DNA from: Candidatus Delongbacteria bacterium
GTDB taxonomy: Bacteria; CAIWAD01
Direction: 5' to 3'
Assembly: GCA_963663545.1 (NCBI GenBank)
Contig: OY760505.1
Location: 320,001-384,000, forward strand
Length of the DNA stretch: 64,000 nt
Under the pieces are notes generated by a model that was not told the origin of the DNA, searched no databases, and worked only from the letters and a program-made list of their open reading frames with translations. The translations under genes were made by a program, and so were the position numbers. The stretch's first letter is position 1; each line of letters starts with the position of its first letter. Below are positions 43,914-60,742 of the stretch, piece by piece.

Positions 43914-45128
43914 TCAAAACACCGTGCGGGCGGCGCGGAAACCCACGCTGCCGGACGTGTACGTCGGGTAGTTGTCGATGTGGGGCGCACACCGAACGTA
44001 CGCGGCATCGTTGTACCAGCCGCCACCCCGAAGCACACGGGTGGAGCCGCCTGTAATTCCGTATGGGTCAGATTGAGTGGAGCTGCTGTAGCTCCCATAC
44101 CAATCACCGCACCACTCCCAGACATTGCCCGCCAGGTCGTAGAAACCACGACCCGTCGCAGGATAACTGCCCACAGGGGTGGACCAGCCCACACAGTAGT
44201 TGTAGTTCAACCGCTCGCAGGTCGGCAACTCACTACCCCAGGGGTACTCTCTCTCATCGTCCCACTGGGCGGCGTACTCCCACTCCGCCTCCGTGGGTAG
44301 GCGGTAGCCCTGGGCGAGATAGGGATCATGGCTGGCGCTTTGATTCCAGTTGCCCTGGTAGAATGCTGGCAGACCTTCCATCAGACTGCGCCAGTCGCAG
44401 TAGCAGGCGGCACCGCACCAGCTGACTTCGATCGCCGGGTGATCGGCCGGGTCGTAGCCGTCCGGGTAGGCAAAGCCGGGTCCCCAGGTGCCATTGTTGT
44501 ACGTACGCGCCACCAGGTAGAACTGCTGGGTGCCCGTGTTAAAGGCGATCTCGCAGTAGTTGGTGTCATCCAGATCGAACAGCTCTACCCCGTAGGCCTG
44601 CACGCTGCTGCTGCTGGCGCTCACCAGGCCCTGGCCGAGCGCCCACTGCAGGGCGTCCATGTACTCCGCGTTGGTCACTTCGTGGGCGTCTAGGTAGAAG
44701 TCGTGGGTCAGGTGTACCGTGTGTTCGGGTGTGATTACACCAGCCTGCCCCATCATGAAGCTGCCGGCGGGAACGAGCACCATGTCCTCCGGAGCCATTG
44801 CTTCCGCATCAACACGCACCACCGCATTCTCGTGATACACACTGCCCAGCCAGGCCTGCAGGTTGATGCTGGCGAAGTGTTCTCCGACGAGCATCTCGCC
44901 GAAGTCGCCCCCAAGGTACGGGTCGGGAACGGCCGTGAAGCTCACGCCTCCGTCCAGGGAGAGCAGCAGGCTGATGTTCGCGTCCTGGTCCGCCAGCCGG
45001 TAGTGCACCTGCAGCCAGCCGGGCGTGTTGCTGTCCTGGTAAAAACTTACCTCAGACACCGTCTGCGCCGCCACGAAACCTGCCAGCAGCAGCGTCCACA
45101 GCAGGGCGATCATTGTACTCCTGTTCAT
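43914..45128 (-). CDS. FGE-sulfatase (C-type lectin fold) protein 1, N-terminal Ig/FN3-like domain type I
   Basis: Signal peptide, VPAGSFMMG, HEVTN, YRLPTEAEWEYAA, DLAGNVWEW, RVLRGG, GFR. Confidence 0.9.
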   Translation of the reverse strand: MNRSTMIALLWTLLLAGFVAAQTVSEVSFYQDSNTPGWLQVHYRLADQDANISLLLSLDGGVSFTAVPDPYLGGDFGEMLVGEHFASINLQAWLGSVYHENAVVRVDAEAMAPEDMVLVPAGSFMMGQAGVITPEHTVHLTHDFYLDAHEVTNAEYMDALQWALGQGLVSASSSSVQAYGVELFDLDDTNYCEIAFNTGTQQFYLVARTYNNGTWGPGFAYPDGYDPADHPAIEVSWCGAACYCDWRSLMEGLPAFYQGNWNQSASHDPYLAQGYRLPTEAEWEYAAQWDDEREYPWGSELPTCERLNYNYCVGWSTPVGSYPATGRGFYDLAGNVWEWCGDWYGSYSSSTQSDPYGITGGSTRVLRGGGWYNDAAYVRCAPHIDNYPTYTSGSVGFRAARTVF

Positions 45129-45137
45129 CTTCCCCCC

Positions 45138-45812
45138 CTACTTCAGCAAAGTGATTTTGTGCTGGGCGACACAATCACCCGCCTGCAGACGTACGATGTA
45201 GATGCCGCTGGCCAGCGCGCTTCCGATAAAGAGCGCCTGGTGCTCGCCGCTGTTCTGCAGGCCGTGATACAAGTCCGCCACCCTCTGTCCACGCAGGTTG
45301 TAAACGCAAAGGGAAGTCTCCTCCGTCTGCGCCAGCACATAGTGGATCACCGTGCCGGGGTTGAAGGGATTGGGGTGTGCGCCCAGCAGCGCAAAACTGG
45401 CTGGCTGCTCATCGGCGGAAGCAACGGCCTCTTCGATCACCTCGAACTCCGTCGACCAGAGCTCGCCTACATTGCCGCAGGCGTCCTGTACGTGAAAGTG
45501 AAACTGGTAGAAGCCCAGCTCCAGCTCGCAGGGCCAGTCGAAGTTGGCGCCGTAGCCCAGGGTCGTGTGCATGGGAACGCTGAGGCCAGCGCCCTCGGCA
45601 GTAATCGTGACCAGCGGCGCTTGCGCGCTCTGATCCGTCACACTGTATTCGACATAGATATCGGTGCCTTGGACGATCTGCGCGTCCAGCACGCTGTCCA
45701 GCGAAACCTGCGGCGCGACGGTGTCAATGACGCCGGGTGCGCTGTCGGCATAGCTGGCAAAAAGGGACGGGCAAGCGAGAAGGCTCGCCAGCACCAGAGT
45801 GCGGTAGTACAT
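45138..45812 (-). CDS. Small secreted Ig-domain + T9SS-type CTD protein (adaptor 1)
   Basis: Signal peptide, SYADSAPGVIDTVAP, Ig domain ending DACGN..STEFEV, AHPNPFNP...KITLLK. Confidence 0.85.
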   Translation of the reverse strand: MYYRTLVLASLLACPSLFASYADSAPGVIDTVAPQVSLDSVLDAQIVQGTDIYVEYSVTDQSAQAPLVTITAEGAGLSVPMHTTLGYGANFDWPCELELGFYQFHFHVQDACGNVGELWSTEFEVIEEAVASADEQPASFALLGAHPNPFNPGTVIHYVLAQTEETSLCVYNLRGQRVADLYHGLQNSGEHQALFIGSALASGIYIVRLQAGDCVAQHKITLLK

Positions 45813-45906
45813 ACTCTCTCCTCGAACCTGGGGTGAATCCCTGGCACACGGTGTTGTGCAGTGCTTTGTTGCTCCTGGGAATGGATGATTCTGCTATAAC
45901 TGTCCG

Positions 45907-45922
45907 AGCAAGCCGTATGCCA
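45907..45922 (-). promoter_or_regulatory. Sigma-54 promoter, module 1
   Basis: TGGCATACGGCTTGCT. Confidence 0.7.
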
Positions 45923-46161
45923 ACGGAGCATTATCGTTTACGGGCGCTAAGTGTTTGTTCCTTGCTTTAATATTTCCTGGGTGTGTGGGCGTGGAGCGCG
46001 CGCTGGTGCCGGATCTGGTACAATCTCCCCGACAGTCCAGACACAACAGCGCAGCTGTAGCCGATGCCCGGGCAACCATCGCAGCTCCCACAGAGCGCAA
46101 CGGCAAAGGCTCGGCCAGAAGTTGTTGCTTCCATCAGGCGTGCGCGACTGCCGGACAGAGG

Positions 46162-46191
46162 CAAGCGGCCCGTCGGCTGACGGGTCGCTTG
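46162..46191. terminator. Hairpin after FGE paralog 2
   Basis: caagcggcccgtc-ggct-gacgggtcgcttg. Confidence 0.6.
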
Positions 46192-46229
46192 ATTTTTCTT
46201 GCGGGCCATGCCCGGCATGTGATACAAGA

Positions 46230-47468
46230 TCAGGGATTGGCGGTACGGCAGACGCGGAAGCCCACGTGGCCGCTCGTGCGCGACGGGGAGTAGTGGCCGT
46301 CGCGATACGCACACCGGACGTACTCGGCAGCGTGGTTCCAGCTGCCACCCCGAATCACGCGGTAGGAGCTGCTCGATATTCCGTATGGATTCGACTGTGC
46401 CGAACTGCTATAGTTGCCATACCAATCACCGCACCACTCCCCGACATTGCCCGCCAGGTCATAAAACCCGCGGCCAGATGGCGGATAGCTGCCTACGGGC
46501 GAGGTCCAGCCCACGCAGTAGCTGCTGCCGTTGTAGTAGTTCAGCAACGCGCAGTCGGGTGGTTCATTACCCCAGGGATAGCTGCGTTCGTCGTTCCACT
46601 GTGCCGCGTACTCCCACTCGGCCTCCGTGGGCAGGCGATAGCCCTGCGCCGTGTATGGATCATGGCTGGCCGACTGATTCCAGTTGCCCTGGTAGAATGC
46701 CGGCAGACCCTCCATCAAACTGCGCCAGTCGCAATAGCAGGCTGCCCCGTACCAGCTCACTTCCTTCACCGGGTGATCGGCCGGGTCATAGCCGCCGGGG
46801 TAGGCAAAGCCAGGACCCGAGAAGCCGCTGGTGTACGAGCGTGCCACCAGATAGAACTGCTGGGTATTGGTGTTGAAGCCGATCTCGCAAAAGCTCGTGG
46901 CATACAGGTCAAGCAGCTCTACCCCGTAGGCCTGCACGCTGCTGCTGGTTACGCTAACCAGCCCCTGGTTGAACGCCCACTGCATCGCGGCCAGATACTC
47001 GGCGTTGGTCACTTCATGGGTATCCAGGTAAAAATCTTGCGTCAGCGTGACTGTGTGTTCGGGTGTGGCCACATCAGAATCAGACTCGCCCATCACGAAG
47101 CTTCCGGCGGGAACGAGGATCATGCTCACCAGAGCCGCCGCTTCCGCATCAACACGCACCACCGCATTCTCGTGATACACGCTGCCCAGCCAGGCCTGCA
47201 GGTTGATGCTGGCGAAGTGTTCGCCGACGAGCATCTCGCCGAAGTCGCCCCCGAGGTACTGGTCGGGAACGGCCGTGAAGCTCACGCCGCCGTCCAGGGA
47301 GAGCAGCAGGCTGATATTCGCATCCTGCTCTGCCAGCGTGTAATGCACCGTCACTAGCCCGCTGCCGTCCTGCGCCTGAGCAAAGCTCACATCTGACACC
47401 GTTTGCGCCGCAGCAAAGCCTGCCAGCAATAGCGTCCACAGCAGGGCGATCATTGTATTTCGATTCAT
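46230..47468 (-). CDS. FGE-sulfatase protein 2 (type I N-domain)
   Basis: Same motifs as paralog 1. Confidence 0.9.
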   Translation of the reverse strand: MNRNTMIALLWTLLLAGFAAAQTVSDVSFAQAQDGSGLVTVHYTLAEQDANISLLLSLDGGVSFTAVPDQYLGGDFGEMLVGEHFASINLQAWLGSVYHENAVVRVDAEAAALVSMILVPAGSFVMGESDSDVATPEHTVTLTQDFYLDTHEVTNAEYLAAMQWAFNQGLVSVTSSSVQAYGVELLDLYATSFCEIGFNTNTQQFYLVARSYTSGFSGPGFAYPGGYDPADHPVKEVSWYGAACYCDWRSLMEGLPAFYQGNWNQSASHDPYTAQGYRLPTEAEWEYAAQWNDERSYPWGNEPPDCALLNYYNGSSYCVGWTSPVGSYPPSGRGFYDLAGNVGEWCGDWYGNYSSSAQSNPYGISSSSYRVIRGGSWNHAAEYVRCAYRDGHYSPSRTSGHVGFRVCRTANP

Positions 47469-47477
47469 GCTTTCCCC

Positions 47478-48152
47478 CTACTTCAGCAAAGTGATTTTCT
47501 GCTGGGCCACGCGCTCGCCCGCCTGCAGACGTACGATGTAGATGCCGCTGGCCAGCGCGCTGCCGTCAAAGAGCGCCTGGTGCTCGCCGCTGTCCTGCAG
47601 GCCGTGGTACAATTCCGCCACACGCTGACCGCGCAGGTTGTAGACCTCGAGCGAAGCCTCGGCGGTCTGCGCCAGTGCGTAGCGAATCACCGTGCCGGGG
47701 TTGAAGGGGTTGGGATGCGCGCCCAACAGCGCAAAGCTGGCCGGCTGCTCATCGGCGGAAGCAACGGCCTCTTCGATCACCTCGAACTCCGTCGACCAGA
47801 GCTCGCCTACATTGCCGCAGGCGTCCTGTACGTGAAAGTGAAACTGGTAGATGCCCAGCTCTAGCTCACAGGGCCAGTTGAAGTTGGCGCCGTAGCCCAG
47901 GGTTGTGTGCATGGGAACGCTGAGGCCAGCGCCCTCGGCTGTAATTGTGACCAGCGGCGCTTGCGCGCTCTGGTCTGTCACGCTGTACTCAACGTAGACG
48001 TCGGTGCCGTAGACGATCTGCGCGTCCAGCACGCTGTCCAGCGAAACCTGTGGCGCAACGGTGTCAATGACGCCGGGTGCGCTGTCGGCATAGCTGGCAA
48101 AAAGGGACGGGCAGGCGAGAAGGCTCGCCAGCACCAAAGTGCGGTAGTACAT
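47478..48152 (-). CDS. Adaptor 2 (Ig + T9SS-type CTD)
   Basis: Near-identical to adaptor 1; GAGGAGAG RBS before MYYR. Confidence 0.85.
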   Translation of the reverse strand: MYYRTLVLASLLACPSLFASYADSAPGVIDTVAPQVSLDSVLDAQIVYGTDVYVEYSVTDQSAQAPLVTITAEGAGLSVPMHTTLGYGANFNWPCELELGIYQFHFHVQDACGNVGELWSTEFEVIEEAVASADEQPASFALLGAHPNPFNPGTVIRYALAQTAEASLEVYNLRGQRVAELYHGLQDSGEHQALFDGSALASGIYIVRLQAGERVAQQKITLLK

Positions 48153-48249
48153 ACTCTCTCCTCGAATCCGTGCGAATCCCTCACAGTGGCGCTGCGGCAG
48201 GATTCTGTGTTTGCTGAAAACGAAATCTGATTTTGCTGCTACGCTTGAT

Positions 48250-48265
48250 TGCAAGCTTCATACCA
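48250..48265 (-). promoter_or_regulatory. Sigma-54 promoter, module 2
   Basis: TGGTATGAAGCTTGCA. Confidence 0.7.
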
Positions 48266-48465
48266 ATTCCTGCAATGCGTGCCGGAATTGGCAACTGTTA
48301 TAATTCCAAGTAGATGCTTCGCTAATTCGGTGTTGCAGAAATGCAAGTGTGCCGGATACGCGACAGAAGTACAGAACAGCGCGAACACTATTACGCCTGC
48401 GGCGGGAATGGGACACGGCTTTGGAGGGTGGACCGATTCAGGTGCCTTGTCTGTGCACACAAAGA

Positions 48466-48493
48466 AAGCGACCCGCCGACTAACGGGTCGCTT
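48466..48493 (-). terminator. Hairpin/terminator after FGE paralog 3
   Basis: Minus strand aagcgacccg-ttagtcgg-cgggtcgctt followed by tcttt. Confidence 0.6.
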
Positions 48494-48532
48494 GATTTTC
48501 CTTGCGGGCCATGCCCGGCATGTGATACAAGA

Positions 48533-49753
48533 TCAGGGATTGGCCGTACGGCAGACGCGGAAGCCCACTTGGTAGCTCATTCCATTCGGGCTGTTGCCAT
48601 TGCGGTACGCACACCGGACGTACGTGGCAGAGCTGCTCCAGGCTCCACCTCGACGCACGCGAGCATTAATGCCATCAATTCCGTATGGATTGGATTGAGG
48701 GGAGCTGCTGTAGCTTCCAAACCAATCTCCGCACCACTCATAGAGATTGCCCGCCATGTCGCAGAAGCCAAGGTCTGTAGCCGGATAACTGCCCACCGGG
48801 GTGGTCCAGGCCACACAGTTGTTGTAGTTCAACCGCTCGCAGATCGGCAAGTCATTGCCCCAGGGGTATTCTCTATTATCGTCCCACTGGGCGGCGTACT
48901 CCCACTCTGCCTCCGTGGGTAGGCGGTAGCCCAGGGCCAGATAAGGATCATGGCTCAGGTCTTGATTCCAGTTGCCCTGGTAGAAGGCGGGTAGGCCATC
49001 CATCAGGCTGCGCCAGTCGCAATAGCAGGCGGCGCCGAACCAGCTGACTTCCTTCACCGGGTGATTAGCCGGGTCGTAGCCGTCGGGATAGGCAACGCCG
49101 GGCCCCCATAAGCCACCGCTCGTGCGCGCAACCAGATAGAACTGCTGGATGCTGGCATCGAAGGCAATCTCGCAGTAGTCGGTAGCGTTCAGGTCCAGCA
49201 GCTGCTTACCATAGGCCTGCACGCTGCTGCTGCTGGCGGTCACCAGGCCCTGGTTGTACGCCCACTGCAGCGCGGCCAGGTACTCGGCATTGGTCACCTC
49301 GCAGCGTCCCAGGTAGAAGTCGTTCGTTAGTGTGACCTGATGCTCAGGTGATGAAAAATATATGCCCTCCTGCCCCATCATGTAGCTGCCGGCGGGAACG
49401 AGGATCATGCTCACCAGAGCCGCCGCTTCCGCATCAACACGCACCACCGCATTCTCGTGATACACGCTGCCCAGCCAGGCCTGCAGGTTGATGCTGGCGA
49501 AGTGTTCTCCGACGAGCATCTCGCCGAAGTCGCCCCCAAGGTACTGGTCGGGAACGGCCGTGAAGCTCACGCCTCCGTCCAGGGAGAGCAGCAGGCTGAT
49601 GTTCGCGTCCTGGTCCGCCAGCCGGTAGTGCACCTGTAGCCAGCCGGGTGTGGTACTGTCCTGATAAAAGCCCACTTCCGACACGGTTTGCGCCATCGTG
49701 ACACACGCCATCAGCAGTCCGAGCAGCAGGGCGATGCAGGTAGTCTTCTTCAT
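48533..49753 (-). CDS. FGE-sulfatase protein 3 (type I N-domain)
   Basis: Same motifs as paralog 1. Confidence 0.9.
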   Translation of the reverse strand: MKKTTCIALLLGLLMACVTMAQTVSEVGFYQDSTTPGWLQVHYRLADQDANISLLLSLDGGVSFTAVPDQYLGGDFGEMLVGEHFASINLQAWLGSVYHENAVVRVDAEAAALVSMILVPAGSYMMGQEGIYFSSPEHQVTLTNDFYLGRCEVTNAEYLAALQWAYNQGLVTASSSSVQAYGKQLLDLNATDYCEIAFDASIQQFYLVARTSGGLWGPGVAYPDGYDPANHPVKEVSWFGAACYCDWRSLMDGLPAFYQGNWNQDLSHDPYLALGYRLPTEAEWEYAAQWDDNREYPWGNDLPICERLNYNNCVAWTTPVGSYPATDLGFCDMAGNLYEWCGDWFGSYSSSPQSNPYGIDGINARVRRGGAWSSSATYVRCAYRNGNSPNGMSYQVGFRVCRTANP

Positions 49754-49766
49754 TTCTCTTCCCCCC

Positions 49767-50441
49767 CTACTTCAGCAAAGTGATTTTGTGCTGGGCCACG
49801 CGCTCGCCCGCCTGCAGCCGTACGATGTAGATGCCGCTGGCCAGCGCGCTGCCGTCGAAAAAGACCTGGTGCTCGCCGCTGTCCTGCAGGCCGTGATACA
49901 AGTCCGCCACCCGCTGTCCACGCAGGTTGTAGACGCAGAGGGAAGTCTCCTCCGTCTGCGCCAGCGCATAGTGGATTACCGTGCCTGGGTTGAAGGGGTT
50001 GGGATGTGCTCCCAACAGCGCAAAACTGGCTGGCTGCTCATCGGCGGAAGCAACGGCCTCTTCGATCACCTCGAACTCTGTCGACCACGTGTCACAGAAG
50101 TTGCCGCAGGCGTCCTGTACGTGAAAGTGAAACTGGTAAATGCCTAGCTCCAGCTCGCAGGGCCAGTTGAAGTTGGCGCCGTAGCCCAGGGTTGTGTGCA
50201 TGGGAACGCTGAGGCCAGCGCCCTCGGCAGTAATTGTGACCAGCGGCGCTTGCGCGCTCTGATCCGTCACGCTGTACTCAACGTAGACGTCGGTGCCTTG
50301 GACGAGCTGCGCGTCCAGCACGCTGTCCAGCGAAACCTGCGGTGCGACGGTGTCAATGACGCCGGGTGCGCTGTCGGCATAGCTGGCAAAAAGGGACGGG
50401 CAGGCGAGAAGGCAAGCAAGCATCAACGTGCGAACAGTCAT
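49767..50441 (-). CDS. Adaptor 3 (Ig + T9SS-type CTD)
   Basis: Near-identical to adaptor 1; GAGGAG RBS before MTVR. Confidence 0.85.
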   Translation of the reverse strand: MTVRTLMLACLLACPSLFASYADSAPGVIDTVAPQVSLDSVLDAQLVQGTDVYVEYSVTDQSAQAPLVTITAEGAGLSVPMHTTLGYGANFNWPCELELGIYQFHFHVQDACGNFCDTWSTEFEVIEEAVASADEQPASFALLGAHPNPFNPGTVIHYALAQTEETSLCVYNLRGQRVADLYHGLQDSGEHQVFFDGSALASGIYIVRLQAGERVAQHKITLLK

Positions 50442-50534
50442 GATCACTCCTCGATTCCGCACAGTCTTACACCTAGCTGTAGGCTGCGGTGAATGCTGTT
50501 GTAGGTTATAGATCGATTTTGCTGAAGCGCAGAG

Positions 50535-50550
50535 CGCAAATGATGTGCCA
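50535..50550 (-). promoter_or_regulatory. Sigma-54 promoter, module 3
   Basis: TGGCACATCATTTGCG. Confidence 0.7.
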
Positions 50551-50799
50551 TTTTCGTCACACACCTTCGCGTTTGAACAATTGTTCAAATTTCAAGCAGA
50601 TAGCAACCAGAGAATTGAGGAAGAAAAGGCCTCGTGTGCCGGATTTTCTACAGAATTAGGCTCAGACTGAACAATATTTCGCGAACCTTTCCATTGCTTG
50701 GTGGATATCGAGCCAGAATGCCGAAGCTCCATCCATGTACGCACAACGGGCACTTCTACTCGTGCACAGAGCAAGGCGACCCGCCAGCTGACGGGTCGC

Positions 50800-51003
50800 A
50801 GAAGGTTCGAATTCCAAAACATGAAGGCAGCCAACTGTATCCGGTCACGGCTGGAAGCCCCTCCCTCAGGCTTAGCCAGTCGCAATAACAGGCGGCGCCG
50901 TGCCAGCGGACTTCCTTCACCGGGTGAGAGGTGCTTCCAGAGCGCGGGTGAGCCCCGAAGCCAACAGCAGAAGCAGAGCAAACAGTGTTGTGAGCTTCCT
51001 CAT
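50800..51003 (-). pseudogene. Internally deleted FGE-sulfatase paralog remnant
   Basis: RBS + MRKLTTLFALLLLLASGLTRALEAP joined out of frame to HPVKEVRWHGAACYCDWLSLREGLPA, then the family hairpin at 50776-50799. Confidence 0.8.
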
Positions 51004-51017
51004 GGTCTCCTCTCAAG

Positions 51018-52220
51018 TCAGGGGTTGACAGTTCGGGCGGCGCGAAAACCCACTCCGCTGCTCGCGTACAAGGGGTCGCTGTTGCGTCGATGCGCACACT
51101 GGACGTTTGTGTCATCGCCGGTCCAGCAGCCACCCCGAATCACTCGAGAGGGGCTACCAGCAATTCCGTATGGATTGGTTTGGTTTGAGCTGCTATAGCT
51201 GCCATACCCATCACCGCACCACTCCCGGATGTTCCCCGCGAGATCTGAAAAACCACGTCCCGTCAGCGGATAGTTGCCAACCGGGGAGGTCCAGCCTATG
51301 CAGTAGCTGCCGCCGTCGTGGTAATTCAGCAATGCGCAGGTGGGGGATTCATTTCCCCAGGGGTAGCTACGTTCATCGTCCCACTGCGCCGCATATTCCC
51401 ATTCAGCCTCCGTCGGCAAACGGTAGCCCTGCGCCAGATAGGGATCGTGGCTGGCGCTTTGATCCCAGTTGCCCTGATAGAACGCGGGCAAGCCCTCGCG
51501 CAGGCTACGCCAGTCGCAGTAACACGCGGCCCCGTACCAGCTGACTTCCTTCACCGGGTGATCGGCCGGGTCGTAGCCGCCGGGGTAGGCGAATCCAGGC
51601 CCCCAGCTACCACTGTTGTATGAGCGCGCCACCAGATAGAACTGCTGTGTACTCGTGTTGAATGCGATCTCGCAGTAGTTAGTGGCATCCAGATTGAGCA
51701 GCTCCACACCGTAGGCCTGTACGCTGCTGCTGTCAGCAGTCACCAGGTCCTGCCCTAGAGCCCACTGCAAGGCTTCCATGTACTGCTGGTTGGTCACCTC
51801 ATGTGCGTCCAGGTAGAAGTCGTAGGTCAGGTGTACCGTGTGCTCCGGCGTGGCCACACCAGCCTGTCCCATCGTGAAGCTACCGGCGGGTACGAACACC
51901 ATGTCGCCTAACTCGCCGATAGCTACAACATTGAAGCTGCCGAATCGAGACGGCTGAAACAGCGAGTCCCACCCCGTAGGCAGGGCGAATTGGCAGCTAG
52001 TTGTATCGGTCCAGGCCAGCAGCGAGTCGGGGCCCGTCCACTGGGTTCTCCCCCGAACCTGATAGGAGACCGCCCCTGCTACGGAAATCCAGTCCAGCCT
52101 GACGCAAGTAGTGTCGCCGTCACACGCGGCAGTGATGGAGACCTGCGGAGCGTCCAGCGCAAAAACAGCCACCAGCGGGATCAGCCACACAGCAGCCATG
52201 ACAAGCACATTCCTCATCAT
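51018..52220 (-). CDS. FGE-sulfatase protein 4, N-terminal FN3-like domain type II
   Basis: AGGAGAGA RBS, signal peptide, LDAPQVSI..LDW..V.GA.SY, FGE motifs. Confidence 0.88.
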   Translation of the reverse strand: MMRNVLVMAAVWLIPLVAVFALDAPQVSITAACDGDTTCVRLDWISVAGAVSYQVRGRTQWTGPDSLLAWTDTTSCQFALPTGWDSLFQPSRFGSFNVVAIGELGDMVFVPAGSFTMGQAGVATPEHTVHLTYDFYLDAHEVTNQQYMEALQWALGQDLVTADSSSVQAYGVELLNLDATNYCEIAFNTSTQQFYLVARSYNSGSWGPGFAYPGGYDPADHPVKEVSWYGAACYCDWRSLREGLPAFYQGNWDQSASHDPYLAQGYRLPTEAEWEYAAQWDDERSYPWGNESPTCALLNYHDGGSYCIGWTSPVGNYPLTGRGFSDLAGNIREWCGDGYGSYSSSNQTNPYGIAGSPSRVIRGGCWTGDDTNVQCAHRRNSDPLYASSGVGFRAARTVNP

Positions 52221-52899
52221 TCTCTCCTGTTTCTTTCGTCGTCGTGTTTTGATCTCTGCTCGGGTTTCTGCTCTGCGCCCTACCACTCGCCAGCGATCCA
52301 TCCGCCTACGGCCCTATGCGCAACGCGTGTGCGGCATGGCAGCAGATGTACTCAGCGGGTACGGCTGTTGGTCGGCAACTCAACGTGACTGGTAATCAAT
52401 GCCAGGTAGAACAGCATGGCCGTCCGCGAAAGTGTCCACGGGCGTGTCACCCCATGTACTCCCGCGACTCCCCGTCTTGCTGCAAAACGGGACGACTCTG
52501 TGATTTCGTTGCTATTTCTGGTCTTGCTGCAATACTGTTGCGCAATCGGCAGACCAGTTTGCCTCCGCTGCGTGCTTGAGCGTAATGACACTATTTTCAG
52601 TCAGATATCAGCTGCGGTCAGACCGGCTTTTCCTGTACATGCCGGATATTCACCAAATTGGGCGTCGGCATGAACACCTAGGAGCAGCGTTCTCCAGCAA
52701 TCACACTTTCAGTCTGGTTGCTCATGGGACAAGCAACCCGTCAGCTAGCAAGTCGAAGTGGGAACTCTATCGTACCAGGCAGCGAGGCTGTCCGCCGTGA
52801 CACACGCTCACTCGCGTCCTGTCTACCCTGGACATCTTCAATACGCGAGAGTTGGCGCAGCAAACTCCAACGGACCGGCGATTGTGTCACGCGGTAACA

Positions 52900-54039
52900 C
52901 TAATCGACGGTACGCACGCAGCGAAAACCGCAGTCGCTGTACGCGCTCGTAGGCGTTTCGTTGTCGCGGTACGCACAGCGGGCGTAGCTGGCATTGTCGT
53001 TCCAATCTCCCCCGCGCAGCGCACGAGCCGTGCCGCTCGCATTTCCGTATGGATTAGTCTGAGTCGAGCTGCTGTAGTCCCCATACCAATCGCCGCACCA
53101 CTCCCAGACATTGCCCGCCAGATCGTAAAACCCACGTCCCGTCGCCGGATAACTGCCCACCGGGGTGGTCCAACCCACACAGTTGTTGTAGTTCTGCCGT
53201 TCGCAGGAAGGGGATTCATTGCCCCAGGGGTAGCTACGCTCATCGTCCCATTGCGCGGCGTACTCCCACTCCGCTTCCGTCGGTAGACGATAGCCCTGTG
53301 CCATGTAGGGATCGTGGCTCGCGTCAATATTCCAGTTGCCCTGGTAGAAGGCGGGCAAGCCTTCCCTCAGGCTGCGCCAATCGCAGTAACACGCGGCTCC
53401 GTACCAAGTGACCTCGATCACCGGGTGTTGCTCGCTCCCCGCATCCACGCTGAACTGGGACCCGGAGTAGGAGATCTCGCAATCAATATCATCCAGGTCC
53501 AGCAGCTCCAGTCCGTAAGCCTGCACGCTGCTGCTGCTGGCAGTGACCAATCCCTGGTCGTACGCCCACTGCAGGGCCTCTACGTATTCCTGGTTGCTCA
53601 CCTCGTACTGTCCCAGGTAGAAGTCGTGGCTCAGGGTCACGGTGTGTTCCGGCTCGGCCACGCCCACCTGTCCCATGACGAACTCACCGGCAGGCACGAG
53701 CACCAGCGGCATCTCCTCCACCGTCGTCACCGCGCGCACGGAAAAGAGCCGCGCCACGTTGGGGCGTACGCGACCGACCTGCAGCATGGGCACGCGCAGA
53801 CTGTACTCGCAGTTGGTGGTCGTGGTCAGCAGCGAGTCCGTCTGCCAGGCGGCGTTGCGCGGGTCGCGGTGGTAGAGCTCGTAATACTCAGCGCCGCTGA
53901 CGCTGGGCCAGGAAAGCTGCACCTGCACGCAATCCAGATCCGGGTTGTACTGGGTGCTCAGGCTGAGCTGGGGCGTCTCCAGAGCGTGCGCGAGCCCGGC
54001 GGTCAGCAGCAGGGCAAACAAGGTGATACGTCGCAGCAT
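52900..54039 (-). CDS. FGE-sulfatase protein 5 (type II N-domain)
   Basis: LETPQLSL..LSWPSVSGA..Y, FGE motifs. Confidence 0.88.
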   Translation of the reverse strand: MLRRITLFALLLTAGLAHALETPQLSLSTQYNPDLDCVQVQLSWPSVSGAEYYELYHRDPRNAAWQTDSLLTTTTNCEYSLRVPMLQVGRVRPNVARLFSVRAVTTVEEMPLVLVPAGEFVMGQVGVAEPEHTVTLSHDFYLGQYEVSNQEYVEALQWAYDQGLVTASSSSVQAYGLELLDLDDIDCEISYSGSQFSVDAGSEQHPVIEVTWYGAACYCDWRSLREGLPAFYQGNWNIDASHDPYMAQGYRLPTEAEWEYAAQWDDERSYPWGNESPSCERQNYNNCVGWTTPVGSYPATGRGFYDLAGNVWEWCGDWYGDYSSSTQTNPYGNASGTARALRGGDWNDNASYARCAYRDNETPTSAYSDCGFRCVRTVD

Positions 54040-54056: not shown

Positions 54057-55262
54057 TCAGGGGTTGGCGGTGCGACAGACGCGGAAGCCCATGCGGCTGA
54101 ACGCGACCGACGGGGCAGCGAAATGGCGACTTGCGCAGAGCAGGTACGACGCGTTGTTACCCCAGCTGCTGTCCCGGCTCACACGGAGGGAGCCGCTTGG
54201 GGGCCCCGTCGGATTGCTCACGCTATCGCTGCTGTAGCTGCCAAACCAATCGCCGCACCATTCGGAGACATTACCGCCCAGGTCGTAGAAACCAAGGCCC
54301 GTCGCTGGATAGCCGCCTACCGGAGTAGTCCACCCCACGCAGAAGCTACTGCCGAGAAAGCAGTTCACCACCTCACAACTGGGGGACTGATCGCCCCAAG
54401 GGTAAGTACGCTCGTCGTTGAACTGGGCCGCATACTCCCACTCAGCCTCTGTGGGCAGACGGTAGCCCTGAGCCAGATAGGGATCGTGGCTGGCGCTTTG
54501 ATTCCAGTTGCCCTGGTAGAAAGCTGGCAAGCCCTCCCTCATACTGCGCCAGTCGCAGTAGCAAGCGGCCCCGTACCAGCTGACGTCCTTCACCGGGTGA
54601 TGGGCAGGGTCGTAGCCCTCGGGGTAGGCAAAACCTGGGCCGAAGGTGCCAGTGTTGGTGGTGCGTGGTACTAGAGTGAACTGTTGAAGGCTTGAGTCGA
54701 AGGCAATCTCGCAGGACTCGACATCACCAATGGCGAGCAGCCCCGCGCCATCAGCCTCGACTCTCGTGTCGGTCACCGTTACCAGGCCCTGATCGTAGGC
54801 CCACTGCAGGGCCTCCATGTACTCCTGGTTGGTCACCTCGTAGCGTCCCAAGTAAAAGTCTTGCGTCAGGGTCGCCGTGTGTTCCGGCTCGGACACGCCC
54901 ACCTGCCCCATGAGGAAGCTGCCCGCAGGTACGAGCACCAGCGGGGACAGCACCGCCCGCACGGAAAAAAGCCGCGCCACGTTGGGGCGCACGCGGCCGA
55001 TCTGAATCATGGGCACGCGCAGGCTATACGCGCAGTTGGTGGTCGTGGTCAGCAGCGAGTCCGTCTGCCAGGCAGCGTTGCGCGGGTCGCGGTAGTAGAC
55101 TTCGTAAACCTCGGCGCCGCTGACGCTGGGCCAGGAAAGCTGCACCTGCACACAATCCAGTTCAGGGTTGTACTGGGTGCTCAGGCTGAGCTGGGGTGCT
55201 TCCAGCGCGTGCGCGAGCCCGGCGGCCAGCAGCAGGGCAAACATTGTGATGCGGTGCGTCAT
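54057..55262 (-). CDS. FGE-sulfatase protein 6 (type II N-domain)
   Basis: N-domain near-identical to protein 5; FGE motifs. Confidence 0.88.
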   Translation of the reverse strand: MTHRITMFALLLAAGLAHALEAPQLSLSTQYNPELDCVQVQLSWPSVSGAEVYEVYYRDPRNAAWQTDSLLTTTTNCAYSLRVPMIQIGRVRPNVARLFSVRAVLSPLVLVPAGSFLMGQVGVSEPEHTATLTQDFYLGRYEVTNQEYMEALQWAYDQGLVTVTDTRVEADGAGLLAIGDVESCEIAFDSSLQQFTLVPRTTNTGTFGPGFAYPEGYDPAHHPVKDVSWYGAACYCDWRSMREGLPAFYQGNWNQSASHDPYLAQGYRLPTEAEWEYAAQFNDERTYPWGDQSPSCEVVNCFLGSSFCVGWTTPVGGYPATGLGFYDLGGNVSEWCGDWFGSYSSDSVSNPTGPPSGSLRVSRDSSWGNNASYLLCASRHFAAPSVAFSRMGFRVCRTANP

Positions 55263-55395
55263 GGTGGATCCTTGGCCGTGGAACACCTCTGGACACGAGT
55301 GAGCGCGCCACGTAGCTACCACCGCGCGCTGGCAATCGGACGATGTCGTGCGTGCAGGTGCATTCGTGGATTCTGCTCCATTTTTCTTGTTGTGC

Positions 55396-55411
55396 TGCAA
55401 GCTTCGCACCA
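55396..55411 (-). promoter_or_regulatory. Sigma-54 promoter for FGE 6/5
   Basis: TGGTGCGAAGCTTGCA. Confidence 0.65.
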
Positions 55412-55578
55412 AAGCTGCAACGAGCGCGGCCTTGCTCGTATGTTCTATAATTTCAATTCATGTCACTTCAGCCTGGAACCTGTCTGCCCGCCGGATTCTC
55501 GACATAGATAACAGGAATAGAACAGTATGAATCCAACGCAGACATCGGCAGCCTGGGGCGCGAGACGCGGGGTCCCTT

Positions 55579-55845: not shown

Positions 55846-57090
55846 CTACGGGGCCACCGTCCGACAGATACGGAAGCCGAGGTCCTCGCTCGCGTTCCCT
55901 GGCAGGGCATTGTAGCGAAAAGCGCAACTCACCGTACCTGCATGGGAGTACGACGAATGGCATCCTCCGCGAGCCACCCGTGCACCCCCCTGACTTGGGC
56001 CTGCGGGGTTGATCGCGTAGTTCGCATTGGGATAGGCGGCAAACCAGTCATTGCACCACTCCCAGACGTTGCCTGCTAAATCATGCAAGCCCAGCGCCGC
56101 GTCGCCGGCGGGATAGCTGCCTACGGGCGCAGTCCAGCGCGCGCAGTTACCGTAGTTTGCCTGCAGGCAAGGTGTGGGTACTGTGTCACCCCATGGATAG
56201 AGTCGCCTATCGTTGTATTGCGCTGCGTATTCCCATTCGGCCTCCGTCGGCAGGCGGTACCCTTCGGCAGCGTATGGATTACCGGGGTCCGGTATTTGTG
56301 ACCATTGGCCATTGTAATAGGGAGTGAGTCCCTCCAACTGACTGCGCCAGTCGCAATAGCAGGCAGCACCGTACCAGGTCACGTGCATGACGGGGTGCGT
56401 GGCAGGATCGTACCCGTTCGGATAAGCCGCCCCCGGACCTCGGCCCTGCGCGCTGAAAGTACCCTCATGAAGGACAAACTGCGGGGAATCGTAGCGGATC
56501 TCGCAATTATCCACCCCTGTGTACCATACCAAAAGGATCTGCCCATACTGCACAACCCTCCCACCACTGGCATTTGGTATCACCAGCCCCTGCTCCAGCG
56601 CCCACTGCAAAGCCTCCAGGTATTCCTCGTTGGTCACTTCGCTACGCCCCAGATAGAAGTATTCCGTCAAGTACACGGCGTGCACGGGCTCGGCCACACC
56701 GGTACGCCCCATGACAAAATAGGCGGCCGGCGGCATCAGCACCATGCCCTCGGGAGCCGTGTGTTCTGCCAACACGCGCACCACGGCATTCGTGCAGTAC
56801 AGACTGCCCAGCCAGGCTTGTATGTTGATGGCAGCGGAGCCATTCCCCGCAGCCACCTCGCCCACATCGCCGCTGGTGTACTCTGCTGGTACGAGCGTGA
56901 AAGAGCTTCCGCCATCCAGCGAGAGCTCAAGGCTGACGTTGGCGTTCAAATCCGGCATCCAGTAGTGCACTTGTAGCCAGCCGGGTGCATTTGCATCCTG
57001 GGAGAAGCTCACGGACATCACGGTCTGCGCGGCGGCAATCCCCGCCAGCTGGAGCGTCCATAGCAGAGCGATCGCGGTAGTTCGGTTCAT
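55846..57090 (-). CDS. FGE-sulfatase protein 7 (divergent type I N-domain)
   Basis: QTVMSVSFSQD..PGWLQVHY..SLDGG, FGE motifs. Confidence 0.88.
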   Translation of the reverse strand: MNRTTAIALLWTLQLAGIAAAQTVMSVSFSQDANAPGWLQVHYWMPDLNANVSLELSLDGGSSFTLVPAEYTSGDVGEVAAGNGSAAINIQAWLGSLYCTNAVVRVLAEHTAPEGMVLMPPAAYFVMGRTGVAEPVHAVYLTEYFYLGRSEVTNEEYLEALQWALEQGLVIPNASGGRVVQYGQILLVWYTGVDNCEIRYDSPQFVLHEGTFSAQGRGPGAAYPNGYDPATHPVMHVTWYGAACYCDWRSQLEGLTPYYNGQWSQIPDPGNPYAAEGYRLPTEAEWEYAAQYNDRRLYPWGDTVPTPCLQANYGNCARWTAPVGSYPAGDAALGLHDLAGNVWEWCNDWFAAYPNANYAINPAGPSQGGARVARGGCHSSYSHAGTVSCAFRYNALPGNASEDLGFRICRTVAP

Positions 57091-57099
57091 GCTTCCCCC

Positions 57100-57774
57100 C
57101 TACTTCAGCAAGGTGATTTTGTGCTGGGCGACGCAATCACCCGCTTGCAGACGCACAATGTAGATGCCGCTGGCCAGCGCGCTTCCGTCAAAGAGCGCCT
57201 GGTGCTCGCCGCTGTCCTGCAGGCCGTGAACCAAATCCGCTACCCGCTGACCGCGCAGGTTGTAGACGCAGAGAGAAGCCTCCTCAGTCTGCGCCAGCGA
57301 ATAGTAGATCACCGTGCCGGGATTGAAAGGGTTTGGATGTGCGCCTGAAAGGGCAAAGCTGGCCGGTTGGTAGTCCGCAGAGGCAACGTCCTCTCCGATG
57401 ACTTCGAACTCCGTCGACCAGAGCTCGCCTGCATTGCCGCAGGCGTCCTGTACGTGGAAGTGAAACTGGTAGATACCCAGCTCCAGCTCACAGGGCCAGT
57501 TGAAGTTGGCGCCGTAGCCCATGGTTGTGTGCACGGGAACGCTGAGGCCAGCGCCCTCGGCAGTAATCGTGACCAGCGGCGCCTGAGCGCTCTGATCTGA
57601 CACGCTGTACTCGACGTACACCTGTGTGCCAACCACGATCTGCGCGTCCAGCACGCTGACCATCGTAATCTGTGGCGCGACGGTGTCAATGACGCCGGGC
57701 GCGCTGTCGGCGTAACTGGCAAACAGTGCCGGACAAGCAAACAGGGCCGTCAGCACGAAAGTGCGGCAGTGCAT
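57100..57774 (-). CDS. Adaptor 4 (Ig + T9SS-type CTD)
   Basis: SYADSAPGVIDTVAP; highly similar to adaptors 1-3. Confidence 0.85.
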   Translation of the reverse strand: MHCRTFVLTALFACPALFASYADSAPGVIDTVAPQITMVSVLDAQIVVGTQVYVEYSVSDQSAQAPLVTITAEGAGLSVPVHTTMGYGANFNWPCELELGIYQFHFHVQDACGNAGELWSTEFEVIGEDVASADYQPASFALSGAHPNPFNPGTVIYYSLAQTEEASLCVYNLRGQRVADLVHGLQDSGEHQALFDGSALASGIYIVRLQAGDCVAQHKITLLK

Positions 57775-58030: not shown

Positions 58031-59252
58031 CTACTCGGCCGCTTTAGCACACGGAAGCCCAGATAGTCCTTTGCGTAGGGTGGAGAATAGCTGACCCGAT
58101 AGGCGCATTTCACGTAGGACGCAGTGGCCTTCCCAGGTACCACCCCGGAAGAAGCGGGCAGAGCCGGTGCTTGCACCGAGGGGGTCGGACGCGGCACTCG
58201 AGGGATAAACCCCATAACAGTCGCCACACCACTCAGCGATGTTACCCGCTATATCATGCAAGCCCAAGGTGCTGCCCCCACAGGATAGCTGCCCACGGGT
58301 GCTGTCCAGCCCACACACCTGGCCATGTCTGCATGGACGCACTCCACGGGTAAGTCATTGCCCCATGGATAGGTACGTTCGTTCTCTTACCGCACCGCGT
58401 ACTCCCACTCCGCTTCTGTTGGCAGTCGGTAGCCATCGGCCAGGTAGGGGTTGTGGCTGGTTGTCTGATCCCAGACTCCATAATAGAAGGGCGACAAGCC
58501 TTCTCTTTGGCTGCGCCAATCGCAGTAGCAGGCGGAACCGTACCAAGTGACATACTTCGCAGGATGTGATGCGGGATCATAACCTTCTGGATAGGCTGCC
58601 CCTGGGCCGGAGATCCCATTGACGTAGGTTCCTGCTTGTAGGAAAAACAGCTGCGAGCTGCTATTGAATTGAATCTCGCACCGATCAGCAGCAGTTCATC
58701 GATGCCCAGCAGGTCCTGTCCGTACTGGCACACGTACTCCCCATCTTCAGAAATCGTCAACAATCCCTGAACCCAGGCCCATTGCACAGCTGCCAGGTAC
58801 TCCTGATTGCTCACCTCATACTGGCCAATCAGGAAGTCATGGGTCAGGGTCACTTAGTGTTCCGGCGGAGCCACGCCATTCTGCCCCATCATGCAGCCGC
58901 CAGCAGGGATGAGAACCATGGCTGCTTCATCGATCGCCGCTCGCACGTGGAAGGTGCGCGCCAGGTTCGAGCGCACACGGCCAGGCTGGCGCCAGCGCAG
59001 GTGCAATTCAAAGCCACAGTCCGTGATTGTAGCCAGCAGGAAATCCTCCACCCAGGTAGAACTACGCGGATTGCGGTAGTAGACTTGATACTGCGTGGCA
59101 CCAGTGACGCAGGGCCACTGAAGCTGGACAAGCGCGCTATCCGTCCCCTCGATGCACTGCGCAGCAACACTTATCTGCGGAGCTTCCAGAGCACAGGCGA
59201 CTCCTGCTGTCAGCAGCAGGAGCACCCCAACCAGTTGCTTCAAGCGTGTCAT
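58031..59252 (-). pseudogene. FGE-sulfatase paralog 8, inactivated
   Basis: In-frame TAA at 58854-58856 (PEH*VTLTH); remaining FGE motifs split over several frames. Confidence 0.85.
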
Positions 59253-60651: not shown

Positions 60652-60742
60652 ATCCAGTCCTTTGTTTGTTGACCTCTCGTGTTGCCGGGCGCTTGGAGCC
60701 ACAGAAAGTGAACACGCCCTCTCCTGCAATGAAAAATGATTC

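What the first reader, a model, noticed from the sequence alone, without database searches (positions are those of the whole stretch)
43914..53030. DGR-type hypervariation signature in the FGE paralog C-termini, with no RT or template repeat in the window
Seen: codons after RGGxW in paralogs 1-5 are TAC/AAC/AGC/ACC/AAC, then AAC/CAC/AGC/GGC/GAC, then GAT/GCT/TCT/GAT/AAT, then GCC/GCC/GCC/GAC/GCC. Positions 1-2 vary freely while position 3 stays fixed, including a T in a C-preferring genome. Paralogs 1 and 2 continue the pattern up to GFR (ACG/TCG, TAC/CGC, TCC/AGC, AGC/CAC) around fixed CGG TGT GCG, CCG and ACG. Known: DGR adenine mutagenesis of AAC/AAT template codons gives this pattern, and FGE-type CLec folds are classic DGR targets. 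Inference: this is an array of remote or historical DGR targets; the template would read roughly TGG AAC AAC AAT GCC ANG AAC GTC CGG TGT GCG AAY CGC (AAC)n CCG ACG AAC ACG AAC AAC AAC. Some third-position differences exist, so not every copy is a current target.
Basis: partly seen in the sequence, partly recalled or inferred. Interest (0 to 1): 0.8.

Follow-up and report, generated by a model that had tools for sequence, protein, structure and literature searches.

The report
Relic DGR targets in FGE array
A tandem family of secreted lectin-fold proteins still carries the codon-level scars of a mutagenic retroelement (DGR) that once rewrote their binding tips, but the template and enzyme that served them are absent from this complete genome, so the variants now look frozen.

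Summary
The quoted codons are in the sequence, and the pattern is more than chance. Among paralogs p1-p5, the 24 codons between RGGxW and GFR have the lowest synonymous and the highest non-synonymous divergence of the whole domain: 0 of 212 core windows are as extreme on either measure.

The complete 3.72 Mb genome has one RT. It belongs to a real DGR about 490 kb away whose template does not fit these genes (36-54 of 90 non-adenine sites mismatched). No template copy for the window genes was found by blastn or by a profile of 53 canonical templates.

Two relatives of the same family do carry such a template beside a DGR RT. Its adenines predict which window positions vary: 29 of 30 adenine columns against 13 of 40 others. 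At its AAC codons, 52 of 60 window codons end in C, against 36.8 expected.

Verdict: these are historical DGR variable regions, now orphaned. Current diversification is not supported. Orphan targets are already described in Treponema denticola and cyanobacteria, so this is a new member of a known kind.

The parts
43914..45128 (-). FGE/CLec-fold paralog p1 (404 aa, signal peptide, type-A N-terminal domain). VR-like stretch at 43944-44015.
   Evidence: ORF. Pfam FGE-sulfatase E = 2e-46. Codons. Hit by the template profile at E = 1.9e-5.
46230..47468 (-). Paralog p2 (412 aa). VR-like stretch at 46263-46337, 25 codons, one more than the others.
   Evidence: Template profile E = 4.3e-4. Against p1, only 2 of 24 third positions differ in the VR, compared with 33% in the core.
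48533..49753 (-). Paralog p3 (406 aa). VR-like stretch at 48566-48637.
   Evidence: Template profile E = 6.8e-4.
51018..52301 (-). Paralog p4 (427-aa ORF, type-B N-terminal domain). VR-like stretch at 51051-51122.
   Evidence: Pfam FGE-sulfatase E = 7e-45. Template profile E = 1.3e-3.
52900..54039 (-). Paralog p5 (379 aa). VR-like stretch at 52930-53001, the best match in the genome to the canonical template profile.
   Evidence: nhmmer 41.5 bits, E = 1.8e-10. 11 of 13 canonical-N columns end in C.
54057..55412 (-). Paralog p6 (ORF 451 aa; the likely start is further in). VR-like stretch at 54090-54161. It has the same architecture but does not share the third positions of p1-p5, and it is the closest to the relatives' template at non-adenine sites.
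   Evidence: 21 of 88 non-A mismatches to the G001 template. pS against p1-p5 is 0.51-0.72. Matched in another reading frame by the tail of the relatives' RT ORFs, which runs over their template.
55846..57090 (-). Paralog p7 (414 aa), with a more diverged C-terminus (RGGCH..., longer spacer).
   Evidence: 57 of 88 non-A mismatches to the G001 template.
58045..58928 (-). Broken FGE paralog (p8) with in-frame stops.
   Evidence: the genome search matches with 1 TAG and 2 TAA inside. Short ORF.
59419..60729 (-). Paralog p9 (436-aa ORF). Its FGE domain groups with proteins of relatives rather than with p1-p6.
   Evidence: Tree.
45138..45812 (-). 224-aa secreted protein with a T9SS C-terminal sorting domain, 9 nt upstream of p1. 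Near-identical copies lie at 47478-48152 (before p2), 49767-50441 (before p3) and 57100-57774 (before p7).
   Evidence: ORFs. Pfam Por_Secre_tail E = 4.2e-6, 27.4 bits against a cut-off of 27.

Best explanation
The window holds a tandem array of secreted FGE-sulfatase/C-type-lectin-fold paralogs. The C-terminal 24-25 codons of each, between RGGxW and GFR, are former variable regions (VRs) of a diversity-generating retroelement (DGR).

Inferred history: a canonical FGE-type DGR, made of an HRDC protein, Avd, RT and an AAC-rich template repeat, once copied its template into the 3' ends of these genes. Each copying randomised the template's adenines, which sit at codon positions 1-2 of AAC/AAT codons. 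It also reset every other base, including third positions, to the template.

The cassette that served these genes is no longer in this genome. The variants are therefore frozen and have since drifted by ordinary mutation, with some gene conversion between copies.

Shown: the codon-level imprint, the absence of a cognate template or RT in this genome, and the existence of the matching template in relatives.

Inferred: that the imprint was written in this lineage's own past, and that the proteins now serve as a fixed repertoire of 7-9 binding specificities on or outside the cell.
For: 1. Imprint on p1-p5. The VR-like stretch has the lowest pS (0.277) and the highest pN (0.424) of the domain. 0 of 212 core windows are as extreme on either measure. 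Raw third-position divergence is also the lowest of the 212 windows, and the reduction holds within codon classes.

2. Internal control. In the genome's own intact DGR the two target genes differ at 91/207 third positions in the core but at 2/24 in the VR. The p1-p2 pair shows the same kind of contrast: 2/24 against 33%.

3. A real template in relatives.
- G001 (same family) has, inside an array of homologous FGE genes, ORFs for HRDC (E = 6.7e-21), bAvd (E = 2.6e-18) and RT (E = 4.2e-16).
- These are followed by a template reading RVIRGGNWNNSATNLRCANRNNNTPSNTNNNIGVRLC.
- G006 has a near-identical template next to an intact 380-aa RT ORF.

4. The template predicts the variation. At codon positions 1-2, 29/30 template-adenine columns vary among p1-p5, against 13/40 other columns (p = 1.5e-8). 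At position 1 the counts are 18/18 against 1/17.

5. Codon choice.
- At the 12 template-AAC columns, 52/60 window codons end in C.
- Given their residues, 36.8 are expected from the paralogs' own codon usage and 31.4 from genome usage. 0 of 200,000 simulations reach 52.
- Control codons without a template adenine give 31/85 against 35.4 expected.
- K/Q/E/M/W, which NNC codons cannot encode, make up 2/60 residues, against 16.6% upstream.
- Six other FGE C-termini elsewhere in the genome show no comparable excess: 3-7 of 13 against 4.5-6.7 expected. The 540k copy also has 7/13.

6. The T in a C-preferring genome. The third codon after W ends in T in all five paralogs. In 53 canonical templates this column reads AAT 21 times and AAC 20 times. 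Only one other N column there has AAT as frequent as AAC.

7. DNA-level likeness. A DNA profile of 53 canonical templates from many phyla has its six best matches in the 3.7 Mb genome at p5, p1, the 548-kb paralog, p2, p3 and p4.

8. No live partner.
- The genome has only one RT.
- That RT's template mismatches the window genes at 36-54 of 90 non-A sites.
- No template-like copy exists outside FGE 3' ends. Real templates score 83-88 bits; the window stretches score 19-41.
- No HRDC, Avd or RT relic lies in the window.
Against: 1. Without the cognate template, adenine specificity cannot be tested directly. Against the G001 template the window genes mismatch at 23-33 of 88 non-adenine sites as well as at 14-20 of 32 adenine sites.

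2. Template adenines sit in the codons of the ligand-binding surface of this fold. The match between template adenines and variable columns would therefore also arise under plain diversifying selection. Only the third-position and codon-choice results separate the two readings.

3. The five paralogs share ancestry and are not independent, so the simulation p-values are overstated. By my own rough reckoning, not a call: C is the majority third base in all 12 columns, which gives about 0.6^12 = 0.002.

4. Gene conversion is active in the family: there are tracts of 96-100% identity in the N-terminal domain. Conversion could lower pS locally, although it should lower pN too.

5. Third positions still vary at 13 of 24 columns, and p2 has an extra codon. 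Any rewriting is old or came from more than one template version.

6. The G001 array is not syntenic with the window. The flanking MoxR and MiaB-like genes lie on other contigs or far away in G001. Loss of the cassette from this very locus is therefore not shown.

7. G001's own adjacent gene mismatches its template at 31 of 109 non-A sites, and its RT reads in two frames. That system also looks decayed, or the assembly has an error.
Confidence: 0.78

Rival explanations
1. Ordinary birth-and-death evolution of a paralog family, with no DGR in its history. The loop between RGGxW and GFR is the ligand-binding surface of the FGE/CLec fold and is under diversifying selection. Its likeness to DGR variable regions reflects the shared fold.
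For: - The family is greatly expanded without linked DGRs: 34 matches in this genome and 3-20 in each of the 11 other genomes of the class. Only 5 of 12 class genomes have any RT, and only G000, G001 and G006 were seen to hold a DGR.
- The conserved frame R-C-A-x-R...P...G-F-R is also present in true formylglycine-generating enzymes (alignment).
- Other stretches of the domain are also variable at the DNA level.
- Single pairs give only weak p-values for third positions.
Against: - Selection on residues does not explain a synonymous divergence lower than in all 212 core windows.
- It does not explain 52/60 C-ending codons against 36.8 expected from the residues present, with no excess in control codons or in the six other FGE C-termini elsewhere in the genome.
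- It does not explain the shared T at the column where canonical templates often read AAT.
Confidence: 0.14
2. The paralogs are live remote targets. They are rewritten in trans either by the resident DGR about 490 kb away or by a canonical cassette on a phage or plasmid that is not part of this chromosome assembly.
For: - The genome does encode a DGR that looks functional. Its two VRs differ from its template at 16 and 15 of 22 adenines, and at 0 and 1 of the 92 non-adenine sites.
- p1 and p2 differ at only 2 of 24 third positions in the VR, as in the intact control.
- Remote targets are known in other DGRs (passages of PMC7517822).
Against: - The resident template mismatches the window genes at 36-54 of 90 non-A sites.
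- No other template exists in a genome rated 98.86% complete on one contig.
- The VR-like stretches differ from one another at non-adenine sites and in length, which one shared live template would erase.
- No paralog behaves as a template for another: at most 45% of mismatches fall on its adenines.
- Contigs from a second sample cover the p1 and p5 VR-like stretches with 0 differences (table 8). Contigs hide rare variants, so this is weak.
Confidence: 0.05

Closest known systems
[quoted passage not shown] 2016, PMC4891356; passages seen)
   Same: FGE/CLec-type target genes persist in genomes with no RT and no template. Their VRs differ from the template of related genomes mostly at adenine positions. 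Several target paralogs occur per genome, and many carry a signal peptide.
   Different: - That comparison is between strains of one species, so non-adenine sites still match. Here the template comes from another genus, and 23-33 of 88 non-adenine sites differ.
- Here the copies form a tandem array of 7-9 genes.
- Here the genome keeps a second, unrelated DGR that looks functional.
CLec variable-protein paralogs of cyanobacteria with 'remnant TR-VR homology' (Vallota-Eastman et al. 2020, PMC7517822; passages seen)
   Same: DGR targets were duplicated within the genome. Some paralogs are no longer near an RT. The authors suggest that the diversification components are removed once a variant is selected.
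   Different: - Those genomes still hold the DGR and its template; here the cognate template is absent.
- Those proteins are mostly intracellular signalling fusions. These are secreted proteins, half of them paired with a T9SS-tailed partner.
Canonical FGE-type DGR (template RGGSWNNNANNxRCANRNNNxPxNxNNNxGFR); structural prototype TvpA, PDB 2Y3C
   Same: - The fold is the same: Pfam FGE-sulfatase, and TvpA is hit at E = 5.4e-14.
- The VR lies at the same place, the 3' end, with the same 24-codon frame and the same fixed residues.
- The template motif occurs in 54 loci across many phyla, 41 of which also hold an RT.
   Different: No template, RT, Avd or HRDC is linked to the window genes.
The genome's own DGR at G000:C1 about 853.7-857.4 kb (locus L001)
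   Same: FGE-fold targets, with an HRDC accessory gene and an RT.
   Different: - The template is of another kind (RGGSWRNEPGRLRAAYRDRNEPDRAYDNLGFR).
- Its target domains form a separate, long-branched clade in the tree.
- Its RT is only 34% identical to the G001 RT.

Membership tests
Diversity-generating retroelement (a functional DGR system including its targets) | DGR-clade reverse transcriptase in the genome or locus | tested here: not met
   None in the window. The one RT of the genome lies about 490 kb away and serves another template.
Diversity-generating retroelement (a functional DGR system including its targets) | Template repeat paired with the variable region, differing almost only at template adenines | tested here: not met
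   No cognate template in the genome. Against the resident template, 36-54 of 90 non-A sites mismatch. Against a relative's template, 23-33 of 88 non-A and 14-20 of 32 A sites mismatch. The intact control shows 0-1 non-A mismatches.
Diversity-generating retroelement (a functional DGR system including its targets) | Variable region at the 3' end of a target gene, in a C-type-lectin/FGE fold, with variation at codon positions 1-2 of AAY-derived codons | tested here: met
Diversity-generating retroelement (a functional DGR system including its targets) | Accessory gene (Avd or HRDC) next to the RT | tested here: not met
   None in the window at tblastn E <= 10, apart from chance-level hits. Present in the relatives' cassettes and in 36 of 54 canonical loci for Avd.
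Diversity-generating retroelement (a functional DGR system including its targets) | Cis elements at the VR 3' end (IMH, downstream hairpin) | tested here: inconclusive
   Hairpins downstream of the stop codons look like ordinary terminators and are not shared between copies. IMH cannot be defined without the template.
Diversity-generating retroelement (a functional DGR system including its targets) | Ongoing site-restricted variation in populations | tested here: inconclusive
   Only assembled contigs were available. The p1 and p5 stretches are unchanged in a second sample of the same study. Rare variants cannot be seen this way.
FGE-sulfatase domain family (PF03781) | Match to the Pfam model above its cut-off | tested here: met
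   p1 E = 2e-46 and p4 E = 7e-45, against a cut-off of 23.3 bits.
Formylglycine-generating enzyme proper | Catalytic cysteine pair in the segment after RGGS (the identity of these residues is recalled, not taken from a call) | tested here: not met
   In the alignment to an FGE chain, the enzyme's segment 'msHRSYcyrYRCA' faces the shorter, hypervariable 'YNDAAY...VRCA' of p1, which has no cysteine there. These are binding-type paralogs, not enzymes.

The most novel reading that the evidence does not exclude
The frozen variable regions are dormant rather than dead. Because they keep the canonical frame and 3' end, a canonical HRDC-Avd-RT-template cassette arriving by transfer could take the whole array as targets again. 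Such cassettes occur in 2 of the 8 family relatives searched and in 54 loci across many phyla. On this reading the lineage alternates between bursts of DGR diversification and long periods with a fixed, tandemly stored repertoire, and the class-wide expansion of this FGE family is the accumulated output of such bursts.
Probability: 0.07. Interest if true: 0.7.

Novelty: new member of a known kind. Interest (0 to 1): 0.4.

Why it matters
DGR surveys start from an RT and a template-variable pair, so they cannot see targets whose DGR has been lost. This array shows that a past DGR can still be recognised from the target genes alone. The marks are a dip in synonymous divergence together with a peak in non-synonymous divergence, and an excess of NNC codons at the former AAC columns.

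A template from another genus can then confirm the call. If the approach holds more widely, many expanded FGE/CLec families could be dated and sorted into those written by a DGR and those that merely diverged. It also gives a worked case of a genome that kept one DGR, lost another, and retained the lost one's products as a fixed set of 7-9 variants.

Tried and rejected
- **Structure.** A model of p1 from a 10-row alignment was unusable (mean pLDDT 32.8). No fold search was run, so the surface position of the variable residues rests on published TvpA work (recalled) and not on a model.
- **Hairpins.** Folding the 3' ends gave terminator-like hairpins with no shared DGR-type element.
- **A paralog as template.** No paralog acts as a template for another; at most 45% of mismatches fall on its adenines.
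- **Relics in the window.** The search for HRDC, Avd or RT remains gave only chance-level hits. The two exceptions are matches of the RT-ORF tail, which overlies the template, to the p6 stretch.
- **Synteny.** The G001 array that holds the cassette is not syntenic with the window.
- **Reads.** Only Logan contigs from one study were on offer. Many laid pieces came from paralogs or other organisms (72-92% ran on unlike the stretch), so the joints and most 'other letters' were not interpreted.
- **G001 and G006 targets.** The DNA search of G001 with its template found only a 30-nt match at the adjacent gene's 3' end. The target gene of the G006 cassette lies beyond the contig end.
- **Timed-out script.** timed out and was rerun in simpler form.
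Full report
**What is there**

The window is bases 320001-384000 of a complete 3.72 Mb genome on a single contig. On the minus strand between 43914 and 60729 lie eight intact FGE-sulfatase-domain genes and one broken one:
- p1, 43914-45128
- p2, 46230-47468
- p3, 48533-49753
- p4, 51018-52301
- p5, 52900-54039
- p6, 54057-55412
- p7, 55846-57090
- p8, about 58045-58928, broken by in-frame stops
- p9, 59419-60729

p1 and p4 match Pfam FGE-sulfatase at E = 2e-46 and 7e-45. By sequence, p1 hits formylglycine-generating enzymes, PorK/GldK and the Treponema denticola variable protein 2Y3C (E = 5.4e-14).

p1, p2, p3 and p7 share one kind of N-terminal domain. Each is preceded, 9-14 nt upstream, by a near-identical 224-aa gene with a T9SS sorting tail (Por_Secre_tail, 27.4 bits against a cut-off of 27). 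p4, p5, p6 and p9 have another kind of N-terminal domain and no such partner.

The copies are mosaics. Tracts of 96-100% identity in the N-terminal domain sit beside a core at 65-90% identity. The C-terminal tails (GFRAART.. or GFRVCRTANP) are distributed differently from the N-terminal types.

**The observation**

The four fixed third positions just after RGGxW prove little alone. Over the 24 codons between W and GFR, 13 of 24 third-position columns vary among p1-p5, against 157 of 235 in the core.

The region as a whole is nevertheless an outlier in two directions at once.
- Mean pairwise pS is 0.277, against 0.549 in the core. Mean pN is 0.424, against 0.152.
- None of 212 contiguous 24-codon core windows has pS as low (minimum 0.417) or pN as high (maximum 0.262). 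Random draws of 24 core columns reach the low pS in 0.0002 of 5000 trials.
- Raw third-position difference is 0.258 against 0.379, again below all 212 windows.
- The reduction holds within two-fold codons (2/25 against 182/658), four-fold codons (11/44 against 313/634) and columns whose residues differ (43/151 against 292/602).

It is therefore not an effect of codon-class make-up. p6 has the same architecture but not the shared third positions; its pS against p1-p5 is 0.51-0.72.

**Is a partner present in this genome?**

The genome has one match to RVT_1, at 855130-855663. It belongs to a real DGR with this gene order: target gene, HRDC gene (E = 1.8e-17), RT, template, second target gene.
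- The template differs from the two variable regions at 16 and 15 of its 22 adenines, and at 0 and 1 of its 92 other bases.
- This serves as an internal positive control. Between the two target genes, third positions differ at 91/207 in the core and at 2/24 in the variable region.
- The template encodes RGGSWRNEPGRLRAAYRDRNEPDRAYDNLGFR and does not fit the window genes: 36-54 of 90 non-adenine sites mismatch.

Other searches for a partner also found nothing.
- blastn of the last 200 nt of each paralog (word size 7) found only other FGE 3' ends.
- A DNA profile built from 53 canonical templates found nothing template-like. Its six best hits in the genome are the VR-like stretches of p5 (41.5 bits), p1, the 548-kb paralog, p2, p3 and p4. 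Real templates score 83-88 bits with the same profile.
- No paralog behaves as a template for another.
- The window holds no recognisable remains of RT, Avd or HRDC.

**The template exists in relatives**

RVT_1 matches occur in 5 of the 12 genomes of the class, G000 included.

In G001 (same family, another genus) one match lies inside an array of FGE genes that are 50-60% identical to p1.
- That locus reads: 899-aa FGE gene, HRDC (E = 6.7e-21), bAvd (E = 2.6e-18), an RT split over two reading frames (E = 4.2e-16), then a non-coding template.
- The template is TGG AAC AAC AGC GCG ACC AAC CTG CGC TGT GCC AAC CGC AAC AAC AAC ACC CCG TCG AAC ACG AAC AAC AAC ATC GGC.
The other 8 differ by one or two bases.

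G006 carries a near-identical template (88.3 bits) after an intact 380-aa RT ORF. Its target lies beyond the contig end.

A scan of one genome per species for the motif C-A-N-R-N-N-N-x-P-x-N-x-N-N-N found 54 loci in many phyla. tblastn found an RT in 41 of them and Avd in 36. This is the canonical FGE-type template.

**Does the relatives' template explain the window?**

At codon positions 1-2, 29 of 30 columns where the G001 template has an adenine vary among p1-p5, against 13 of 40 other columns (Fisher p = 1.5e-8). At position 1 the counts are 18/18 against 1/17. This alone does not decide the matter, because template adenines sit in the codons of the binding surface, which selection would also vary.

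Codon choice does separate the readings.
- At the 12 template-AAC columns, 52 of 60 window codons end in C.
- Given the residues present, 36.8 are expected from the paralogs' own usage and 31.4 from genome usage. 0 of 200,000 simulations reach 52.
- Codons facing template codons without an adenine show 31/85 against 35.4 expected.
- Residues that NNC cannot encode (K, Q, E, M, W) make up 2 of 60, against 16.6% upstream.

Copy by copy, the C excess is present in the following:
- p1, 11/13
- p5, 11/13
- p4, 9/13
- p3, p6 and p9, 8/13 each
- the 545-kb paralog, 11/13
- the 548-kb paralog, 9/13

Six other FGE C-termini elsewhere in the genome show no comparable excess (3-7 of 13 against 4.5-6.7 expected), and the 540k copy likewise has 7/13.

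The T shared by all five paralogs at the third codon after W falls on a column that reads AAT 21 times and AAC 20 times among the 53 templates. Only one other N column there has AAT as frequent as AAC.

These p-values are overstated because the paralogs share ancestry. The direction is the same in every test, and the controls are flat.

**Active or relic?**

The evidence points to relics.
- The VR-like stretches differ from each other at non-adenine sites, and p2 has one extra codon.
- Against the G001 template they mismatch at 23-33 of 88 non-adenine sites.
- No template is present in the genome.
- Contigs from a second sample of the same study cover the p1 and p5 stretches with no differences. 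This is weak, since contigs hide rare variants.

Third-position divergence in the stretch is about two thirds of that in the core (0.258 against 0.379). For p1-p2 it is 8% against 33%. Rewriting therefore continued after these copies had begun to diverge, and it stopped some time ago.

In a tree of the FGE domain without the variable stretch, p1-p6 group with the 540- and 548-kb copies in a clade found only in this genome (support 87/93, not strong). Gene conversion could produce this picture.

The G001 array is not syntenic with the window, so loss of the cassette from this exact locus is not shown. G001's own adjacent gene mismatches its template at 31 of 109 non-adenine sites, and only a 30-nt match to the template was found elsewhere in G001. 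That system may be decaying too.

**How it most likely works now**

Each paralog is a secreted protein with a signal peptide. Its FGE/CLec domain ends in a different binding surface. The catalytic-cysteine segment of true FGEs is replaced by the variable stretch (alignment; the identity of the catalytic residues is recalled). The proteins are therefore binders, not enzymes.

The array acts as a fixed set of 7-9 specificities. Further change comes from point mutation and from exchange of modules between copies. The role of the T9SS-tailed partner of the type-A copies was not tested. A role in surface display is a guess.

**Comparison with what is known**

Orphan DGR targets are in print.
- T. 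denticola isolates without RT or template keep target genes whose variable regions differ from other strains' template mostly at adenines (PMC4891356, passages).
- Cyanobacterial genomes hold CLec paralogs with remnant template-variable homology. The authors propose that diversification components are removed once a variant is selected (PMC7517822, passages).
- I saw only search listings and the passages returned by term searches. I did not read whole texts or supplements.

This case adds a deeper, between-genus example in another lineage, a tandem array, a genome that keeps a second unrelated DGR, and a way to recognise the imprint without the template. It is a new member of a known kind.

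Noticed in passing
outside the window: G000:C1 about 853700-857400 (locus L001 1-3534): An intact-looking DGR. Two FGE-fold target genes flank an HRDC gene, a 371-aa RT and a template. The variable regions differ from the template at 16 and 15 of 22 adenines and at 0 and 1 other bases. No Avd ORF was seen.
   Followed up: yes
window 44900-45100, 47250-47450 and 49550-49750 (N-terminal domains of p1, p2, p3): Tracts of 96-100% nucleotide identity between p1, p2 and p3 beside a core at 65-90%. The C-terminal tail types are distributed differently from the N-terminal domain types. Gene conversion or module exchange is active in the array.
   Followed up: partly
window 50756-51133: A short fragment of the FGE core (HPVKEV.W.GAACYCDW...) lies just downstream of the p4 stop, in the spacer before the next small gene. 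It looks like debris of a deletion or unequal exchange.
   Followed up: no
window 46170-46230 and 48470-48533: The first ~60 nt downstream of the p2 and p3 stop codons, together with the last ~40 nt of the genes, are 96-98% identical and then diverge. Both carry the same terminator-like hairpin.
   Followed up: no
outside the window: G000:C1:3474930-3480542: One open frame of about 1881 aa holds six FGE domains in tandem, two pairs of them nearly identical. Their C-termini show no NNC excess.
   Followed up: partly
outside the window: G000:C1:540000-549400: A second cluster of FGE genes. The 545-kb and 548-kb copies carry the same NNC imprint (11/13 and 9/13). The 545-kb copy is the best blastn match in the genome to the G001 template (76% over 122 nt).
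   Followed up: partly
L020 9972-11113 (G001:C10): The RT of the relative's cassette reads in two overlapping frames (231 aa and 177 aa). This is either a frameshift or an assembly error. The second frame runs over the template.
   Followed up: no
L021 8148-8281 and 6042-6176 (G006:C21): A further DGR in relative G006. Its template (RGGDYTNAAANLRAANRDNNEPSNRDNDLGFR) resembles the kind held by G000's resident DGR. 78% of template-variable mismatches fall on adenines in a crude blast alignment.
   Followed up: partly
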